A stretch of 6,706 nt of DNA from a virus (taxonomy: Duplodnaviria > Heunggongvirae > Uroviricota > Caudoviricetes), in IMG/VR virus record IMGVR_UViG_2563366822_000004, one strand, 5' to 3'. The notes under the pieces are model-generated. The model searched no databases. It worked only from the letters and a program-made list of their open reading frames with translations, and was not told the DNA's origin. Positions 1-6,706 of the stretch are shown piece by piece; position 1 is the stretch's first letter; every line of letters begins with the position of its first letter. Position numbers and translations under genes: made by a program.

Positions 1-1545
1 TATCTGCTGCTGATACGCCTGCGCTATCCACACCGGACGTGAGAGTCCGGCTTTTTCCCGCTCTGCAGATTCCCTGACCTGCTGGCGGAAAATGTCCTGA
101 TAATCCTCGCCCATCAGCGCCAGCTCTTTCTCATACGTGCTCAGTCCGGCCTCAATGCGCATCACTGATTCCTGAACCTCCTTGAGCCCGTCAATGGCCA
201 TTCTTCCGGCTCCAATCCACTCAGCCCGTGACCAGGCTGATCGCGCCTGATAAAAATCAAAACGTGCCCGTGGCGGACGAATAATCCCCCGAAGAAGTGC
301 CTCTTCCAGCCAGCAGGAAAACATCTGCGTGGCCAGCCGGGCCGCAATAAATTTTCGCCGCCCCATAAAATAGCGCCACGACTCATTGGCGGATGCGCGG
401 GCACTTGAATAACTGACCTTCGAGTAATCACGGGACAACTGTTCGTAGGAAACGCCAAGACCGGCGGCGATATACCGCAGCAGCGCCTGTTCAAGCGCCG
501 AAAATCCATTGTCTGAATCCTGCGCGGTCTGAAGTTTCAGATCATCACCGGGGAAAAGGTGCGGAATTTTGACACCGCCCAGCGTCACGCTATTCGTGTC
601 ATACCAGGTGGAGAACTTATCCAGAATATTAATAAGCGGATTATCCTTCTGCCCCTGCGGCGCACCGGCGATATATTCAAAGGCCTTTTCGGTATCAAGG
701 TCACTTTCAATCGTCGCTGCATACATCGCCTTCACTATGGCCGACTGAAGCTGTGTTGCCTGCAGGGAATCGAGCATCTTCAGCCGTTCCATTACGCTGT
801 AAAACTGATTGGCCCCACGGGTCTGCCCGTCCTCCACCGGCTCGAAAATATGCAGCATGGCCGGACGCCCGGTGGGAAGTTCACGCGGGATCCGTTCCCA
901 TCGTCCACTCCCAGAGAACGGAAAATCATCCTCACAGATATGGTACGCAACGGCACGACCATATCGATCGACCTCCACACCGGCCCGCAGAAAACGGTTC
1001 CCCATACCGTGTCCTGGCGTGTCCACCCGTTTCGGACTCACGGCTTTAAAACGCGTACGAAACAGTTGCGTGCTCTCCGTATCCCAGACCGGCTGCACAA
1101 AGATTTCGCCGTTAAACGCATGAACGCCCACACCTTCACGAATAAATTCCGTAAACGTGCGTTTCTCTTCCACGTCGATCTCGCCAGACATCCCTTCGGC
1201 GTATTCCGACCAGGCCGCCTCCACCTCATCGACAAAACTTTTTGCCGCAGTCTCCCGCATCCCCAGCCAGCGCCAGTTCGGACGGTAGCTGATCAGAAAC
1301 ATATGCCCGACAATATGATCCTTATGCAGGGCCACCGCATTGGCCGCTATCCCGTTATTGCGCACCAGATCATCTGCCCGGGCATTCCCCAGACGCAACG
1401 CAGGCAGCAGGGCTGCATCGGCACTCTGCGCCGGTGGCAACCACTCCGCCATTTGCCCGCCAAATCCTGCGCCGCCCCCGTTGTAGCTGAGACTCTCACG
1501 AAGCGGAACGCCGTTCACATCAATCAGGACAGGCGTTCGTTTCAT
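1..1545 (-). CDS. B: Phage portal protein (lambda gpB-like), partial; C-terminal ~18 aa lie beyond the window start
   Basis: Minus-strand frame is open from the ATG at 1545..1543 to position 1. My translation starts MKRTPVLIDVNGVPLRESLSYNGGGAGFGGQMAEW, matching the lambda gpB N-terminus as I recall it; the window-edge codons read LSRPVWIAQAYQQQI, matching the gpB C-terminal region. Absent from the ORF track only because no stop falls inside the window. Confidence 0.93.
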   Translation of the reverse strand, partial: MKRTPVLIDVNGVPLRESLSYNGGGAGFGGQMAEWLPPAQSADAALLPALRLGNARADDLVRNNGIAANAVALHKDHIVGHMFLISYRPNWRWLGMRETAAKSFVDEVEAAWSEYAEGMSGEIDVEEKRTFTEFIREGVGVHAFNGEIFVQPVWDTESTQLFRTRFKAVSPKRVDTPGHGMGNRFLRAGVEVDRYGRAVAYHICEDDFPFSGSGRWERIPRELPTGRPAMLHIFEPVEDGQTRGANQFYSVMERLKMLDSLQATQLQSAIVKAMYAATIESDLDTEKAFEYIAGAPQGQKDNPLINILDKFSTWYDTNSVTLGGVKIPHLFPGDDLKLQTAQDSDNGFSALEQALLRYIAAGLGVSYEQLSRDYSKVSYSSARASANESWRYFMGRRKFIAARLATQMFSCWLEEALLRGIIRPPRARFDFYQARSAWSRAEWIGAGRMAIDGLKEVQESVMRIEAGLSTYEKELALMGEDYQDIFRQQVRESAEREKAGLSRPVWIAQAYQQQI

Positions 1546-1748
1546 AACCTCACTCCCAGCGGACGACGGCGACGTCGGGTTGTCCCCAGTACCGACTCCG
1601 CATCACTGATCGCCCGGTTAAGCTCATCCAGAGAAGCCACCGTATATTCAATTCTGCGACCATCTTTCTGGACAGACACCACCCGTTTACCGGTTAATAA
1701 ATCAAGGCGCGCCTGACGCAGCGCCTGCAGTTCAGCGACTGTAACCAT
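1542..1748 (-). CDS. W: Head-tail joining / head completion protein (lambda gpW-like), 68 aa
   Basis: ORF-track protein [36 protein letters not shown]... resembles lambda gpW (68 aa, recalled motif LMTGKRVATVQKDGRRVEF). A GGAGGAG Shine-Dalgarno lies just upstream of the ATG at 1748. Its TGA stop overlaps the portal ATG (ATGA junction at 1542-1545), as in lambda W/B. Confidence 0.85.
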   Translation of the reverse strand: MVTVAELQALRQARLDLLTGKRVVSVQKDGRRIEYTVASLDELNRAISDAESVLGTTRRRRRPLGVRL

Positions 1749-3660
1749 TCACTCCTCCGGACAGCTTCGCTGCCAGTTCTTTAAGGGTTGGCCGGGTCGT
1801 CTCTTCTTCCCGGGATTTTGCCAGTACAGCCAGATCAAGCTGCCAGCGTTGCACGGACACACGTAATGCCGCGTAGGCATACACCAGGCAGTCCAGCGCT
1901 TCGTTACGCCGCTTTTTGTTATCCCACAGCAGACGCATCTTTCCTTTTTCCCACTTCTCCACAAGCTCTTCCGCCACCAGTTGCTGCGCCTCTGTCTGCG
2001 AAAAAATCTCCGGATCATCAGGAAAACGGATGGCATACGACGTGGCTTCATCCGCAGGAGTGGGATCGGCTTTCATACGGGCATAGAGAATTTCTTTTGC
2101 GGTGTCCGTCCCCACTTCACACAGATACACGCCCCGCTGATTGCGGGTTTTCGGCATGGTGATCACCGGCTTGCCATAGACAGATGCGCCTTTTACCGGC
2201 AGCACCCGGAAAACACCGTGTTTTTTTGACCTCTGATAGACAATTTCACCATCGATCCCCCCGGTGTCCCAGCAGACACGGGAAATGGTCATTTCGGTTC
2301 CGTCTGCATGGCAGTATTTTTTGTTGATCGCCGCATCCACACGTAACAGCGTCTCTTCCTCATCGGGACGGCCCATAATGATGATTTTATCCACCAGAAA
2401 AGCTTCCTCTCCCGGAGCCCATCCCCAGACATACATCTCAAAACGGTTTCGCTGCGAGTCAATGCCCGCCGTCAGATAAACCACCCGGGAAGGCACCGCA
2501 GCCGTGTAACGCACAACCTTATCCATCAGCACCTGGTGATCGAGTTTTTCGCCCACGGCCTCTTCCCAGGTCTCGCCCAGCGTGGTGTTCACAAAGGTTT
2601 TCAGGCCGTTGGGATCTTTCAGTGCATCCAGCCAGTCATAGACAATCTGTACCCAGGTGGTGAACGGACTGTACGCCGTCCAGATATGGAATGTGATGGA
2701 GCGCGGCGGCGGAATTTCATTATCCGCGGCGCTGAAAAATGTCAGACCGTCACGAGTCCACATGCCCGTGTTTTCACAGATCCACCGCCCGTTACTCTGG
2801 TCAAGCTCAGACTGATGGATCACACAGCCATGATGCTCACAAAGGTAGAAAACACTTTCTGGCTTATTCTTCTCCCACTTAAGACCGAAAGGCGAGGCAT
2901 CATCGCCAAATTTCAGATACTGCTCCTCCCCACAGTGCGGACAGGGCACATAAAAACGCATGAAATGTGCCGACTCGTTAGCGGCTTTTTCGATCTGGCA
3001 GGAGCCTTTGATTTTAGGCGTCGAGCCGCGAATGGATTTTGGCCATACAGAGCCCTCAATACGTTTATCCCCCAGCAGGGTTGGCGAACCCTCTTTTTCA
3101 ACATCCGGTTCGAACGAGGAAAGCTCGTCATAACAAACCACATCCACGGATTTTTCACGGTAGTTTTTTGCTGCCGCTCCCCCCAGACACCAGAAACCCA
3201 CACCGGAGGAAAAACGCTTCAGGGTGAGCGTATTATCGCGGTGTTTTCTTCCGAACCATGGAGCCAGCTCCAGCAATGCAGGAACATCCCTTATCGTTGG
3301 CTCAACATGAGATTTCATAAAATCTTCAGCAGCTGAGTCCGTGGGCTGAAAAAGAAGGCTGTTGCGTGATTTATGCTCAATAAAATAAGCCTCCACTCCC
3401 AGCAACATCTTTGTATAACCAACACGGGCAGATTTAATCAGGTTAACAGTGCGAATCAAATCGTTGCCCATACAGTTCATGATGCCAACCTGAAACGGCA
3501 GTGTTTCCCACCGCCCCGGGGTATAAGACGACTCTTTAGGAAGGTAATAATGTTTATTGGCCCACTGAACTGTCGTCAGTGGAACAGGAATAATGAGAGA
3601 TAAAAGCCCTGTAGCTATCGCACCGGCTGCATTAGCTGCCTTCTGTGCGTCTGAAATCAT
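1732..3660 (-). CDS. A: Terminase large subunit (lambda gpA-like), ~642 aa
   Basis: The track ORF 1732..3702 contains [67 protein letters not shown] and [14 protein letters not shown], colinear with lambda gpA as recalled. Start chosen at the ATG at 3660 (MISDAQ...), which gives a lambda-like length and a ~29-nt overlap with the Nu1 3' end; the in-frame ATG at 3702 is an alternative. Confidence 0.95.
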
Positions 3661-4180
3661 CGATCCACCCGCCCACGTTTTCACCGGCCTTAGCTGCAAC
3701 ATTGGAGGCTTTCGCGATTTCAGTTTTCACCACATCAAGGTGTGATGGTGAAATGTCCGGATATTTACGCTGTAATGTCAACGGCACACGCACAAGTATC
3801 CCCGAAATCTCCTGTGCCACACGTTGCAGAATGAAGGTAAACAGTTCAGTTTCCAGCACCACTCCGTCTTCACGGGCATTTTTCAGTTCCTGCGCATCTG
3901 CCTGCGCTTTTGTGAGCCGGTAGCGTTCATAGTCAATGGTGCCGGGTTGTAAATCTGACTCCGCTGCCGCACGCAAATCGGCCAGTTCTTTGCGGAGCTT
4001 TTCGTTTTCGATATCAGTTTCCCTCTGCGCATACCACTGAATTGCCATGGCAGTATCAAATACAGATTCAATGCCCTTACTGCCTTTGGAGACGCAAGGG
4101 AGCCCCTGAGACTGCCAGCGTTCAATCGTCCGCGGGTCCACGTTAAAAATTTCGGCAAGCCTCTTTTTATTAACCTTCAT
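3632..4180 (-). CDS. nu1: Terminase small subunit (lambda Nu1-like), ~182 aa
   Basis: Translation [36 protein letters not shown]...[48 protein letters not shown] is colinear with lambda Nu1 (MEVNKKQLADIF...[47 protein letters not shown]). The track ORF begins at a TTG at 4204; the ATG at 4180 matches the lambda start and sits ~176 nt from cosN, as in lambda. Confidence 0.93.
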
Positions 4181-4204
4181 AGAACAACCCATTATCAAAT
4201 ACAA

Positions 4205-4355
4205 GGCCCGACATGAAAACGCCAGAAAAAGGCATTTTCGGACACTTTCATGTCGGACATTTATGAATGCAATATTAAAAAAAACAAAAAGTTATATTCG
4301 AGAAGTACCGACACGATTTTCCCTGAAAAATTTTCATAAATAGTGAAAAACCGCG
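4205..4355. promoter_or_regulatory. cosB-like terminase-binding region between cosN and Nu1
   Basis: Perfect 11-bp inverted repeat CCGACATGAAA (4208-4218) / TTTCATGTCGG (4246-4256), 27-bp spacer, at the position where lambda has its inverted R2/R1 sites. A related motif (CGTGTCGG on the minus strand, about 4304-4316) sits where R3 would be. The ~45 nt next to cosN closely match lambda; the R-site region does not. Confidence 0.6.
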
Positions 4356-4367
4356 AGGTCGCCGCCC
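4356..4367 (-). other. cosN: 12-nt cohesive-end sequence identical to lambda (GGGCGGCGACCT on the minus strand)
   Basis: Plus-strand AGGTCGCCGCCC at 4356-4367 is the exact reverse complement of the lambda cohesive end. The flanking minus-strand sequence CTCGCGGTTTTTCACTATTTATGAAAATTTTTCAGGG closely matches the lambda left-end sequence as recalled. Confidence 0.88.
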
Positions 4368-4573: not shown

Positions 4574-4759
4574 ATGTCATCAAAGAACAGAACGCGCAGA
4601 ACAACAACCCGCAACATCCGATTTCCAAACCAGATGATTGAACAAATTAACATCGCTCTTGATCTGAAAGGTTCAGGAAACTTTTCAGCGTGGGTTATTG
4701 AAGCCTGCAGAAGAAGGCTGTCAACAGAGAGTTCGGGTATGAATTACATAATTAAGTAA
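4574..4759 (+). CDS. Small ribbon-helix-helix-like DNA-binding protein (61 aa), conserved prophage protein of unknown function; possibly DUF3950 / YlcI-like
   Basis: ATG at 4574 with GGGGA Shine-Dalgarno ~6 nt upstream. Sequence MSSKNRTRRTTTRNIRFPNQMIEQINIALDLKGSGNFSAWVIEACRRRL fits the Arc/CopG/MetJ pattern: basic N-terminal tail, a short beta-strand (IRFP), then two helices. Position (next to cos, opposite strand to nu1) matches my recollection of ylcI beside nohD in E. coli DLP12; that assignment is from memory and unverified. Confidence 0.6.
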   Translation: MSSKNRTRRTTTRNIRFPNQMIEQINIALDLKGSGNFSAWVIEACRRRLSTESSGMNYIIK

Positions 4760-5382: not shown

Positions 5383-5850
5383 TTATTTCAGGCACTGAGT
5401 GCGGATATATTCCTGCGCCACTTCCAGCTGCTTCTGCATCAGCATCAACCGCTCTCTGAGAGTGAAATAATCCCGTTCAGCGGTGTCTGCCAGTCGGGGG
5501 CCGGTTGCATTATCCACGCCGGAGGTGGTGGGGGCTTCACGCACGGTACCGGGGCAGGTGGCGTTGATCCGCAGGCGCTTACGACCAGCGGCAACGTCAG
5601 CGCGCAGAGTTTCATTTTCAGCTCTCGCATCGGCTAATTCCCTCGAGTATCTGGCATCAAGTGCAGCAACATCACGCTGGCGCTGCTGCATATCAGTAAT
5701 GGTTGCATTTGCCTGCTCCAGCTCACTGACTTTTTTATCGCGCTGCTCTTTGTAGGTTATGGCGTTATCACGGTAATGATTCAGCCCCAGACTAAGCGCA
5801 CCACAGGCCACCAGCAGGGCAATGATGACCACGCACAGTACGCGGTTCAT
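5383..5850 (-). CDS. Rz: Spanin, inner-membrane subunit (i-spanin, lambda Rz-like), 155 aa
   Basis: MNRVLCVVIIALLVACGALSLGLNHYRDNAITYKEQRDKK...DMQQRQRDVAALDARYSRELADARAEN...VAAGRKRLRI...TTSGVDNATGPRLADTAERDYFTLRERL is colinear with lambda Rz as recalled (AVNHYRDNAITYKAQRDKN...RQRDVAALDAKYTKELADAKAEN...SPRLADTAERDYFTLRERL). N-terminal transmembrane segment present. Confidence 0.93.
   Translation of the reverse strand: MNRVLCVVIIALLVACGALSLGLNHYRDNAITYKEQRDKKVSELEQANATITDMQQRQRDVAALDARYSRELADARAENETLRADVAAGRKRLRINATCPGTVREAPTTSGVDNATGPRLADTAERDYFTLRERLMLMQKQLEVAQEYIRTQCLK
5445..5630 (-). CDS. Rz1: Spanin, outer-membrane lipoprotein subunit (o-spanin, lambda Rz1-like), 61 aa, embedded in the +1 frame of Rz
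   Basis: MRELKMKLCALTLPLVVSACGSTPPAPVPCVKPPPPPAWIMQPAPDWQTPLNGIIS has a lipobox (VSAC) and the proline-rich stretch CVKPPPPPAWIMQP..DWQTPLNGIIS, near-identical to lambda Rz1 as recalled. Nested entirely within Rz, as in lambda. Confidence 0.9.
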   Translation of the reverse strand: MRELKMKLCALTLPLVVSACGSTPPAPVPCVKPPPPPAWIMQPAPDWQTPLNGIISLSESG

Positions 5851-5851
5851 T

Positions 5852-5950
5852 TCACCACCAGCGTATCTGACCGATGAAATAACCGGAGGCCATAATCACA
5901 AACACCAGCCAGATAAGAATGAACTTCCAGGTGGATAATTTTTCAGCCAT
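5852..5950 (-). CDS. Hypothetical small transmembrane protein (32 aa) immediately upstream of Rz, speculative
   Basis: Manual translation: MAEKLSTWKFILIWLVFVIMASGYFIGQIRWW, one hydrophobic helix. GGGAG lies ~9 nt upstream of the ATG at 5950. Its TGA stop (5854-5852) is one nucleotide from the Rz ATG (5850), i.e. a translational-coupling geometry. Occupies a ~300-bp R-Rz spacer that lambda lacks. Confidence 0.3.
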   Translation of the reverse strand: MAEKLSTWKFILIWLVFVIMASGYFIGQIRWW

Positions 5951-6025
5951 CACTCGAATCTCCCGAATCAGTTTGCTAAAATCAAACACACTTTCTCCTT
6001 TGACTTTTCCAGAGTCAGGAAACAC

Positions 6026-6058
6026 AAAACCCCGCTTGCAGCCAACAAACGGGGTTTT
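6026..6058 (+). terminator. Terminator-like hairpin (9-bp stem AAAACCCCG / CGGGGTTTT, 15-nt loop) followed by a T-rich tract
   Basis: Read from the sequence: stem arms at 6026-6034 and 6050-6058, then TTTTTACTTTTATT on the plus strand. The minus strand has a weaker U-tract (UUUUGUGUUU). The loop is long for a canonical intrinsic terminator. Confidence 0.3.
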
Positions 6059-6148
6059 TACTTTTATTCACTTACATTTTGCCAGTTCGCAGGATTTCGT
6101 GTTATCCGTCCGCCTTGGCCAACGTCATTGATTAGCAAAATATTCTGC

Positions 6149-6496
6149 TTATCTGTCGATTCCCCAGCACGCCAGCGCGCTCTCCTGGTCACGACGGGAT
6201 ACCTGACCGTAACAGTTATTTGAGCGAATACGGCAGTCTCTGCCACCGTCCTTAATCCACCAGCGAATCGCCTCACACGCTCCCCTGCGATCACCTGCAT
6301 TAATTCGTTTATAAAACGTCGACGGAAAACACTTACCGGGGCCAATGTTGTACGGACAGAATGACGCGATCCCCGCTTTCTGGGGTTCACTCAATGGCAC
6401 TCTGATGTTTTTCTCCACCCATGCCAGCGCCTTATCACGCTCAATGGCGTTAACCCGGTCGCATTTTTCCTTCGACAACTTCATGCCCGGAACGAC
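6149..6496 (-). pseudogene. R: Phage endolysin (lysozyme family), 3' fragment; N-terminal ~55-60 residues removed by the IS insertion
   Basis: Minus-strand translation ...VVPGMKLSKEKCDRVNAIERDKALAWVEKNIRVPLSEPQKAGIASFCPYNIGPGKCFPSTFYKRINAGDRRGACEAIRWWIKDGGRDCRIRSNNCYGQVSRRDQESALACWGIDR matches the C-terminal two-thirds of lambdoid lysozyme-type endolysins (phage 21 R-like). Upstream of codon V at 6496 the frame runs into IS sequence and a stop at 6529-6527; no N-terminal signal-anchor region or catalytic Glu region is present in the window. Confidence 0.85.
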
Positions 6497-6706
6497 TGAA
6501 GTGGTCAACAAAAACTGGCCACCGAGTTAGAGTTTTTCCAGTATCGATTTTCCGATTCGTTTGGGGGTAATCCACCGTTATATTCGTGCGGTCTTAGTGC
6601 GCTGTAATATCCAACGATATAGTCCGTTATGGCGTGAGCTGCCTCGCTGAAGCTTACGTAACCCACCACCGGCATCCATTCGTTCTTCAGACTCCTGAAG
6701 AAGCGT
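6497..6706 (-). mobile_element. IS3-family insertion sequence, terminal ~210 bp (IS911-like right end); element continues beyond the window end
   Basis: The sequence starts with TGAAGTGGTCAACAAAAACTGGCCACC at 6497 (TG...CA-type IS3-family terminus) exactly where endolysin homology ends. The minus strand encodes a transposase C-terminus that ends inside this terminal repeat, as is typical of IS3-family orfB. IS911 identity is from memory of the terminal sequence, not a search. Confidence 0.8.
6505..6706 (-). CDS. IS3-family transposase OrfB (DDE integrase), C-terminal 66 aa, partial
   Basis: Minus-strand translation RFFRSLKNEWMPVVGYVSFSEAAHAITDYIVGYYSALRPHEYNGGLPPNESENRYWKNSNSVASFC ending at the TGA at 6507..6505. 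The FFxSLK...E and RPHxxNGGL(S/P)P motifs are the conserved C-terminal signature of IS3-family OrfB. Confidence 0.85.
   Translation of the reverse strand, partial: RFFRSLKNEWMPVVGYVSFSEAAHAITDYIVGYYSALRPHEYNGGLPPNESENRYWKNSNSVASFC

What the first reader, a model, noticed from the sequence alone, without database searches (positions are those of the whole stretch)
6149..6706. IS3-family (IS911-like) element inserted into the endolysin gene: lysis-defective prophage
Endolysin homology stops abruptly at 6496 and is replaced by an IS3-type terminus and the C-terminal coding region of a transposase. What remains of R lacks its N-terminal region, so the canonical lysis cassette is broken, while portal, terminase and cos look intact. 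That combination suggests a cryptic or domesticated prophage that may package DNA but cannot lyse unaided. IS911 is abundant in Shigella and some E. coli lineages.
Basis: partly seen in the sequence, partly recalled or inferred. Interest (0 to 1): 0.55.

Follow-up and report, generated by a model that had tools for sequence, protein, structure and literature searches.

The report
IS911-truncated endolysin gene in prophage remnant
A common E. coli jumping gene (IS911) cuts off the front third of a prophage's cell-wall-digesting lysis enzyme, leaving a dead gene fragment; this is an ordinary kind of prophage decay, found here in a single strain.

Summary
Similarity to intact lambdoid lysozyme genes of E. 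coli stops at window 6496. From 6497 the sequence is the right end of IS911: 36/36 to the published IRR and 210/210 to IS911 copies, including the last 66 codons of the transposase. What remains of R is codons 63-177 of a 177-aa Stx-phage-type SAR endolysin. The SAR membrane domain and the whole catalytic triad (E35, D44, T50) are gone, so the gene is a null.

The window is a contig (KB732916.1:1219945-1226650) of an E. coli draft genome, GCA_000351925.1, bounded by scaffold gaps. Across the gap the other IS911 end does not abut the 5' half of R or a holin gene. It abuts an unrelated island next to yecE, and there is no target-site duplication. The IS therefore most likely marks a deletion or rearrangement junction. 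This locus then holds only the late arm ('R, Rz/Rz1, cos, Nu1, A, W, portal, head and tail genes), with no Q, holin, replication, immunity or integrase genes within 10 kb upstream. That would make it a non-inducible remnant rather than a packaging-competent, lysis-defective prophage.

The junction is private to this assembly. It is a known phenomenon of low interest.

The parts
6497..6706 (-). Right-end portion of IS911 (210 nt). It runs to the contig end; the rest of the element lies in a scaffold gap.
   Evidence: 210/210 identical to IS911 copies in E. coli genomes and plasmids. It corresponds to positions 1-210 of the full copy L002 2001-3249.
6497..6532 (.). IS911 right terminal inverted repeat (IRR, 36 bp). 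Its tip, TGAAGTGG..., lies at 6497.
   Evidence: 36/36 match to the published IRR oligonucleotide IRRa (PMC2909936 Table 1).
6505..6705 (-). Last 66 codons plus stop of the IS911 transposase (orfB part of OrfAB).
   Evidence: Translation ends ...NRYWKNSNSVASFC*. Pfam rve_2 E=3.2e-5. PGAP annotates the identical DNA as IS911 family transposase.
6149..6496 (-). 3' remnant of a SAR-type GH24 endolysin gene (R): codons 63-177 plus stop. The SAR domain and catalytic triad are missing.
   Evidence: 100% identical to residues 63-177 of the 177-aa lysozyme WP_024239084.1. Pfam PF00959, profile positions 27-125 only. The alignment to phage 21 R (3hde) places E35, D44 and T50 in the missing part.
6149..6511 (-). 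Chimeric 120-aa ORF. A TTG start and five codons (MLTTS) come from the IS911 IRR and are fused in frame to the R remnant. This is an annotation artefact, not an enzyme.
   Evidence: ORF list. It is on record as WP_077635173.1 'glycoside hydrolase family protein', seen on one contig only.
6026..6058 (-). Terminator-like GC-rich hairpin downstream of the R stop codon.
   Evidence: Consensus scan. One such site is expected by chance, so this is weak evidence.
5852..6025 (-). Small ORF between R and Rz. A shorter version is annotated as a hypothetical protein in relatives.
   Evidence: No Pfam hit.
5383..5850 (-). Rz (i-spanin), 155 aa, full length.
   Evidence: Pfam Phage_lysis E=8e-49. Same length as in intact relatives.
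5445..5630 (-). Rz1 (o-spanin lipoprotein) embedded in Rz in another frame. It has a lipobox (VSAC) and a proline-rich body.
   Evidence: ORF translation. Assignment is by sequence features and position only.
4574..4759 (+). YlcI/YnfO-family (DUF3950) gene between the lysis genes and cos.
   Evidence: Pfam DUF3950 E=9e-19. Annotated the same way in a relative.
4356..4367 (-). cosN, the 12-nt cohesive-end sequence GGGCGGCGACCT.
   Evidence: Exact match. The phage 21 genome records begin here (query 2130 = window 4367).
3632..4180 (-). Terminase small subunit Nu1, 182 aa.
   Evidence: Pfam Phage_Nu1 E=2e-81. Gene call in L013.
1732..3660 (-). Terminase large subunit gpA, 642 aa.
   Evidence: Pfam GpA_ATPase and GpA_nuclease. 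Gene call. 97.5-97.8% nucleotide identity to phage 21.
1542..1748 (-). Head-tail joining protein gpW, 68 aa.
   Evidence: PF02831 gpW in the gene table.
1..1545 (-). Portal protein gene: the first 515 codons, cut by the contig end and a scaffold gap.
   Evidence: PF05136 Phage_portal_2. An N run starts right after L013 16511 = window 1. Relatives have about 530 aa.

Best explanation
Window 6149-6706 is the junction between the right end of an IS911 copy and the 3' two-thirds of a lambdoid SAR-endolysin gene. IS911 entered R between or at codons 63/64 in the same orientation as R. The enzyme's export and anchor domain and all three catalytic residues lie upstream of that point, so the remaining 115 codons encode no lysozyme activity. 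In the source chromosome the same IS911 copy, bridged by a scaffold gap, has as its other neighbour an unrelated island beside yecE, with no target-site duplication. The most likely history has two steps. First, IS911 inserted into R. Second, an IS-mediated adjacent deletion, or recombination with a second IS911 copy, removed or moved away 5' R, the holin, Q and the whole early region. What is left at this locus is a phage-21-like late arm ('R-Rz/Rz1-cos-Nu1-A-W-portal-head-tail) with no way to be induced, replicated, transcribed from the late promoter, or to lyse the cell. Shown directly: the exact junction, the identity of the IS, the loss of residues 1-62, and the different outer flank without a duplication. 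Inferred: that a single IS copy spans the gap, the order of events, and the phenotype. The confidence of 0.72 is for the whole statement, including the rearrangement. The core claim, that IS911 truncated the endolysin into a null allele, stands at about 0.97.
For: Junction and IS identity. Truncation: the remnant equals residues 63-177 of intact 177-aa alleles. The E-x8-D-x5-T triad is at E35/D44/T50, with the same numbering as phage 21 R, PDB 3hde; the motif definition is from PMC9239132. Pfam covers profile positions 27-125 only. Source scaffold: the window is L013 9806-16511 reversed. IS911 IRL and the orfA start lie at L013 8215-8445 (230/231 identical) in the orientation expected for one copy. 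They are separated from the window's IRR part by 1360 N. The outer flank of IRL is the yecE-side island, 97-99% identical to L014 up to L013 8205. The flanks read ...GTGGT|IS911|GTCGTT..., so there is no duplication. There is no similarity to 5' R, holin, esterase or the Q region of intact relatives anywhere in L013 or L017. Intact relatives carry Q-...-holin-ORF-lysozyme-Rz in that order. TSD-less IS copies are commonly explained by inter-IS recombination or adjacent deletion (PMC11708052). Recency: the remnant and Rz region are 100% identical over 697 nt to 19 complete genomes. The junction is absent from 5426 complete E. coli genomes, GTDB representatives and JGI metagenomes.
Against: The link between the two IS911 ends is a scaffold join, not contiguous sequence. 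One IS911 copy needs 808 missing bases, but the gap is written as 1360 N. Other gaps in this scaffold are also off by 140-250 nt. Only about 10 kb upstream of the junction could be read, so the 5' part of R and the early region might sit elsewhere in the genome after an inversion. Nine orphan bases (TGAAGTGGT) between the island and the IRL are unexplained. An exact 63-aa N-terminal lysozyme fragment is on record in other NCBI assemblies, so simple insertions or contig breaks at this site may exist elsewhere.
Confidence: 0.72

Rival explanations
1. Simple IS911 insertion. The 5' 189 nt of R, the holin and the rest of an otherwise complete prophage lie directly on the far side of this IS copy, with a GTC duplication. 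The scaffold wrongly joined the window to another IS911-ended contig. The prophage would then be: intact apart from R.
For: The join is across an N gap inside a multicopy repeat, and the stated gap (1360) is 552 nt longer than one IS911 copy needs. A 63-aa product, M1-V63, is exactly what a GTC duplication followed by the IS911 TGA tip would give, and it is on record on 12 other NCBI contigs.
Against: The two IS parts have the orientation expected of one copy. Scaffolders link unique flanks, and other gaps in this scaffold are similarly imprecise. No holin or 5' R sequence lies within the 10 kb upstream. No complete E. coli genome has either junction of such a simple insertion.
Confidence: 0.2
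2. Assembly chimera. The junction at 6496/6497 is not real but was created when the assembler joined reads of a lysozyme gene and of IS911.
For: The junction lies only 210 nt from a contig end, and both sides are repeated sequences in E. coli genomes.
Against: The break in homology coincides to the base with the biological tip of the IS911 IRR. A chimera would have no reason to do that. There is no shared sequence between R and IS911 at the junction that could mislead an assembler.
Confidence: 0.02
3. The 120-aa ORF (6149-6511, minus strand) is a functional, shortened glycoside hydrolase, as its RefSeq name suggests, so lysis is not abolished.
For: RefSeq lists it as a protein, WP_077635173.1, not a pseudogene. 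Pfam Phage_lysozyme passes its threshold.
Against: It lacks residues 1-62 of the family, including E35, D44, T50 and the SAR export domain. Its first five residues are read from the IS911 inverted repeat. No sigma-70-like promoter is found at the junction.
Confidence: 0.01

Closest known systems
IS911 (IS3 family; described from Shigella dysenteriae, studied by the Chandler laboratory)
   Same: The 36-bp IRR is identical to the published one. The 441 visible bases (210 + 231) differ at one position from a full 1249-bp copy in E. coli ST2747. The layout is the same: orfA start beside IRL and orfB end beside IRR.
   Different: This copy has no 3-4 bp target duplication, and its two flanks come from unrelated contexts. 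About 808 internal bases are unsequenced. Nine extra bases identical to an IRR tip precede its IRL.
SAR endolysins of lambdoid phages (phage 21 R, PDB 3hde; R of Stx phages such as BP-4795 and 933W)
   Same: Intact alleles of this gene are 177 aa and 96-97% identical to R of BP-4795 and Stx1a phages. They align with phage 21 R with the same E35/D44/T50 numbering and have an Ala/Gly-rich N-terminal hydrophobic stretch. They sit downstream of a 71-aa class II (pinholin-type) holin.
   Different: The window keeps only residues 63-177, with no SAR domain and no catalytic triad. No holin gene is adjacent in the source scaffold.
Phage 21 packaging and head module
   Same: cos, Nu1, A, W and portal are 97.5-97.8% identical in DNA to phage 21 (M81255.1, OL657228.1), and cosN is exact.
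   Different: The lysis genes are of the Stx-phage type rather than the phage 21 alleles, which is the usual lambdoid mosaic.
IS-decayed cryptic lambdoid prophages of E. coli K-12 and Shigella (DLP12, Rac, Qin and the like; from general knowledge, not tested here)
   Same: A prophage arm left behind after an IS-associated truncation, with some late or lysis genes still open.
   Different: The sequence here shows no decay. It is 100% identical to intact alleles and private to one assembly, so the event looks recent rather than an old fixed remnant.

Membership tests
IS911 / IS3 family insertion sequence | Terminal inverted repeat of 36 bp beginning 5'-TG, identical or near-identical to the IS911 IRR | tested here: met
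   Window 6497-6532 is 36/36 identical to the published IRR.
IS911 / IS3 family insertion sequence | Nucleotide identity to IS911 along the element (isoform level, above about 95%) | tested here: met
   210/210 (window) and 230/231 (IRL side in L013) against the full copy L002. The central 808 nt or so lie in a scaffold gap and were not seen.
IS911 / IS3 family insertion sequence | orfA and orfB joined by a programmed -1 frameshift, giving a DDE transposase | tested here: inconclusive
   Only the last 66 codons of orfB (rve_2) and the first 53 codons of orfA (HTH_Tnp_1) are sequenced. The frameshift site and DDE residues lie in the gap. Identical DNA elsewhere is annotated with a programmed frameshift.
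IS911 / IS3 family insertion sequence | 3-4 bp direct target duplication flanking the element | tested here: not met
   The flanks are ...AAGTGGT and GTCGTTCC.... This bears on the history of this copy (rearrangement), not on what the element is.
GH24 phage lysozyme, SAR endolysin type | Phage_lysozyme (PF00959) domain | tested here: met
   E=3.3e-15, but only profile positions 27-125 of 125 are covered.
GH24 phage lysozyme, SAR endolysin type | Catalytic triad E-x8-D-x5-T | tested here: not met
   E35, D44 and T50 of intact alleles lie upstream of residue 63 and are absent from the window.
GH24 phage lysozyme, SAR endolysin type | N-terminal weakly hydrophobic signal-anchor-release domain | tested here: not met
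   The stretch GLSAAVLALIAAGAPAP of intact alleles (residues 8-24) is absent. The ORF instead starts with MLTTS, read from the IS.
Complete lambdoid lysis cassette (holin, endolysin, spanins) | Holin gene upstream of the endolysin | tested here: not met
   Relatives have a 71-aa class II holin 400-600 nt upstream of R. Nothing similar is found in L013 or L017.
Complete lambdoid lysis cassette (holin, endolysin, spanins) | Rz/Rz1 spanin pair downstream | tested here: met
   Rz is 155 aa, Pfam E=8e-49. The embedded 61-aa ORF has a lipobox.
Inducible lambdoid prophage | Q antiterminator with late promoter, replication, immunity and integrase genes contiguous with the late region | tested here: not met
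   Upstream of the IS the scaffold goes straight to the island and yecE'-yecN-cmoA-cmoB-torZ. This depends on the scaffold join, and the rest of the genome could not be searched.

The most novel reading that the evidence does not exclude
The IS911 copy may not be the relic of two ordinary steps (insertion, then recombination or adjacent deletion). It could be the product of one non-canonical, duplication-free transposition event coupled to a large deletion. Such an event would have fused a phage-21-like late arm to the yecE island, and the orphan 9-nt IRR-like tip (TGAAGTGGT) directly before the IRL would be its footprint. That would be a natural example of the IS-centred rearrangements recently reported from laboratory evolution (PMC11708052).
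Probability: 0.08. Interest if true: 0.35.

Novelty: already known. Interest (0 to 1): 0.08.

Why it matters
It matters little beyond annotation. It shows that WP_077635173.1 ('glycoside hydrolase family protein') is a truncated chimeric ORF that should be flagged as a pseudogene. It also shows that this prophage region in the strain should be scored as a defective remnant when prophages or inducibility are counted. IS-mediated erosion of prophages in E. coli and Shigella is a well-known process, and this is one more instance, apparently recent and private to one strain.

Tried and rejected
- Look-up of the 111-aa ATG-started product. It returned unrelated contigs: contig-edge fragments (L003, L004, L011, which start 12-13 nt inside the remnant) and Logan/ENA contigs with single-base frameshifts at varying positions (L005-L010). 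None carries IS911. These are not the same event.
- Junction 30-mer in GTDB species representatives and JGI metagenomes: no match.
- Predicted reciprocal junction (5' R + GTC + IS tip): absent from JGI metagenomes and from complete E. coli genomes.
- The orphan-tip junction TGAAGTGGTTGAAGTGGCACACTG in GTDB representatives: none.
- Hybrid outward promoter from the IRR -35 (TTGACC) driving 'R-Rz. The consensus scan finds no promoter on the minus strand at the junction, and the best -10 candidate at 17-nt spacing is CATGAA. Rejected as unsupported.
- Rfam and tRNA scans of the window: nothing.
- Integration site of a close relative (strain 21AH004). It is at ompW, not yecE, so it gives no help in reconstructing the original arrangement.
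- The paper on IS911 IR-targeted insertion (PMC2546779) is not held.

Full report
**1. What is in the window**

Read on the minus strand, the window is the late-gene start of a lambdoid prophage. In order it holds:
- a truncated lysozyme gene (6149-6496);
- a small ORF (5852-6025);
- Rz with embedded Rz1 (5383-5850 and 5445-5630);
- a DUF3950 gene on the other strand (4574-4759);
- cosN (4356-4367, exact GGGCGGCGACCT);
- Nu1 (3632-4180), terminase A (1732-3660) and W (1542-1748);
- the first 515 codons of the portal gene (1-1545).

The cos-to-portal stretch is 97.5-97.8% identical to phage 21. Intact alleles of the lysozyme are 96-97% identical in protein to R of BP-4795 and Stx1a phages.

**2. 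The observation**

Megablast of 5800-6706 against 5426 complete E. coli genomes gives many matches, 19 of them 100% identical. Every listed match ends at query 697, which is window 6496. No genome covers 80% of the query.

The remaining 210 nt (6497-6706) are 100% identical to copies annotated as IS911 family transposase. In a full copy (L002 2001-3249) they are the end that follows the transposase stop codon. The first 36 nt equal the published IS911 IRR at every position (PMC2909936). The minus-strand frame 6505-6705 gives the last 66 residues of the transposase.

**3. What is lost from R**

The intact gene in a genome that is 100% identical across the remnant encodes 177 aa. The window keeps residues 63-177 without a single change.

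Alignment with phage 21 R (PDB 3hde) has the same numbering and places the lysozyme triad E-x8-D-x5-T at E35, D44 and T50 (motif as given in PMC9239132). All three residues, and the Ala/Gly-rich hydrophobic N-terminus (residues 8-24) that serves as the signal-anchor-release domain in this class, lie in the missing 62 residues. Pfam accordingly matches only profile positions 27-125.

The 120-aa ORF that RefSeq lists as WP_077635173.1 starts at a TTG inside the IRR. Its first five codons are IS sequence. It is not an alternative intact enzyme.

**4. Where the window comes from and what lies beyond it**

An exact look-up of the 120-aa product finds a single place: scaffold KB732916.1 of E. coli assembly GCA_000351925.1. 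The window is the reverse complement of L013 9806-16511, which is KB732916.1:1219945-1226650. It is a contig bounded by runs of N on both sides. This explains why the window stops inside the IS and inside the portal gene.

On the far side of a 1360-N gap the scaffold continues with the other IS911 end. IRL and the first 53 codons of orfA lie at L013 8215-8445, are 230/231 identical, and have the orientation expected for one copy.

The DNA outside that end is not R. It is a dam-like methyltransferase gene and a 277-aa ORF belonging to an island next to a truncated yecE, followed by yecN, cmoA, cmoB and torZ. The same island, 97-99% identical, occurs at yecE in other E. coli. Similarity ends at L013 8205.

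The flanks read ...AAGTGGT | IS911 | GTCGTTCC..., so there is no 3-4 bp duplication. Nothing similar to 5' R, the holin, the esterase or the Q region of intact relatives is present in the 24.8 kb read around the window. Intact relatives have Q, methyltransferase, tRNAs, esterase, class II holin, an ORF, lysozyme and Rz in that order.

**5. Interpretation**

The endolysin gene is a null allele created by IS911. That much is shown directly.

The absence of a duplication and the unrelated outer flank indicate that this IS copy now sits at a rearrangement junction. Such junctions arise by adjacent deletion or by recombination between two IS911 copies, which are the usual explanations for TSD-less IS copies (PMC11708052).

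If so, the locus retains only the late arm of the prophage, cut off from Q and the late promoter and from replication, immunity and integration functions. 'Packages but cannot lyse' is then too generous, because the element would not be induced or express its late genes at all.

This step depends on a scaffold join:
- One IS911 copy needs 808 missing bases, against 1360 N written.
- Two other gaps in the same scaffold are also off: 1834 N for 2085 real bases in the head genes, and about 140 nt too many in another IS.

I give the rearrangement reading about 0.7 and a simple insertion with a misjoined scaffold about 0.2.

The late arm is collinear with an intact relative as far as the tape-measure gene, apart from gaps. 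Nu1, A, W and Rz have full length.

**6. Age and spread**

The remnant and the Rz region are 100% identical to intact alleles in 19 of the listed complete genomes, so there is no sign of decay after the event. The junction was not found in:
- 5426 complete E. coli genomes;
- GTDB species representatives;
- JGI metagenomes.

The chimeric ORF is on record from one contig only. The predicted reciprocal junction is absent as well. This looks like a recent, strain-private event. There is no evidence of domestication.

**7. Loose ends**

- Nine bases, TGAAGTGGT, lie between the end of island homology and the IRL tip. They are identical to the first nine bases of the IRR and are in direct orientation. 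I could not explain them, and the combined 24-mer does not occur in GTDB representatives.
- An exact 63-aa N-terminal lysozyme fragment is on record on 12 short NCBI contigs. This is the product expected if the IS911 TGA tip follows a GTC duplication. These contigs could not be fetched, so IS insertions or repeat-induced contig breaks at this same point may exist in other isolates.

**8. Verdict**

IS-eroded prophages are commonplace in E. coli and Shigella, so novelty is nil and interest is low.

Noticed in passing
L013 8206-8214 (source scaffold, left IS911 junction; outside the window): Nine orphan bases, TGAAGTGGT, lie between the yecE-island flank and the IS911 IRL tip. They are identical to the first nine bases of the IS911 IRR and are in direct orientation to the IRL tip. 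They could be a footprint of an earlier IS end, a tip duplication or an assembly quirk.
   Followed up: partly
window 6149-6511 (-): RefSeq carries the chimeric 120-aa ORF (TTG start and five codons from the IS911 IRR, plus the R remnant) as an ordinary protein, WP_077635173.1 'glycoside hydrolase family protein', rather than as a pseudogene.
   Followed up: yes
L005-L010 (Logan and ENA contigs): The same lysozyme gene appears split into 66-aa and 111-aa ORFs by single-base frameshifts at different positions in different contigs. These are most likely low-coverage assembly errors rather than real pseudogenes.
   Followed up: partly
NCBI proteins EEZ2260882.1, EFJ2374111.1 and others (P0001, P0002): An exact 63-aa N-terminal fragment of this lysozyme (M1-V63) is on record on 12 + 3 short contigs. 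It ends at the very codon where IS911 sits here, which hints at recurrent breaks or insertions at this site in other isolates.
   Followed up: partly
L013 1279-2700: About 1.4 kb, partly N gap, is inserted between torZ and cmoB relative to other E. coli. An ORF starting MEHELHYIGID runs into the gap, suggesting another insertion sequence.
   Followed up: no
L014 11990-17050 (E. coli tcmA_3, yecE island): About 100 nt from the point where IS911 sits in the source strain, another strain carries IS3-family and IS21-family elements. This stretch of the island seems to collect insertion sequences.
   Followed up: no
window 6026-6058 (-): A GC-rich hairpin followed by a T-rich stretch lies just downstream of the R stop codon and before the small ORF and Rz. 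It is terminator-like inside what is normally one late transcript. The scan expects about one such site by chance.
   Followed up: no
window 1-4367 (-): The packaging and head module (cos, Nu1, A, W, portal) is 97.5-97.8% identical to phage 21, while the lysis genes are of the Stx-phage (BP-4795/933W) type. This is an ordinary lambdoid mosaic.
   Followed up: yes
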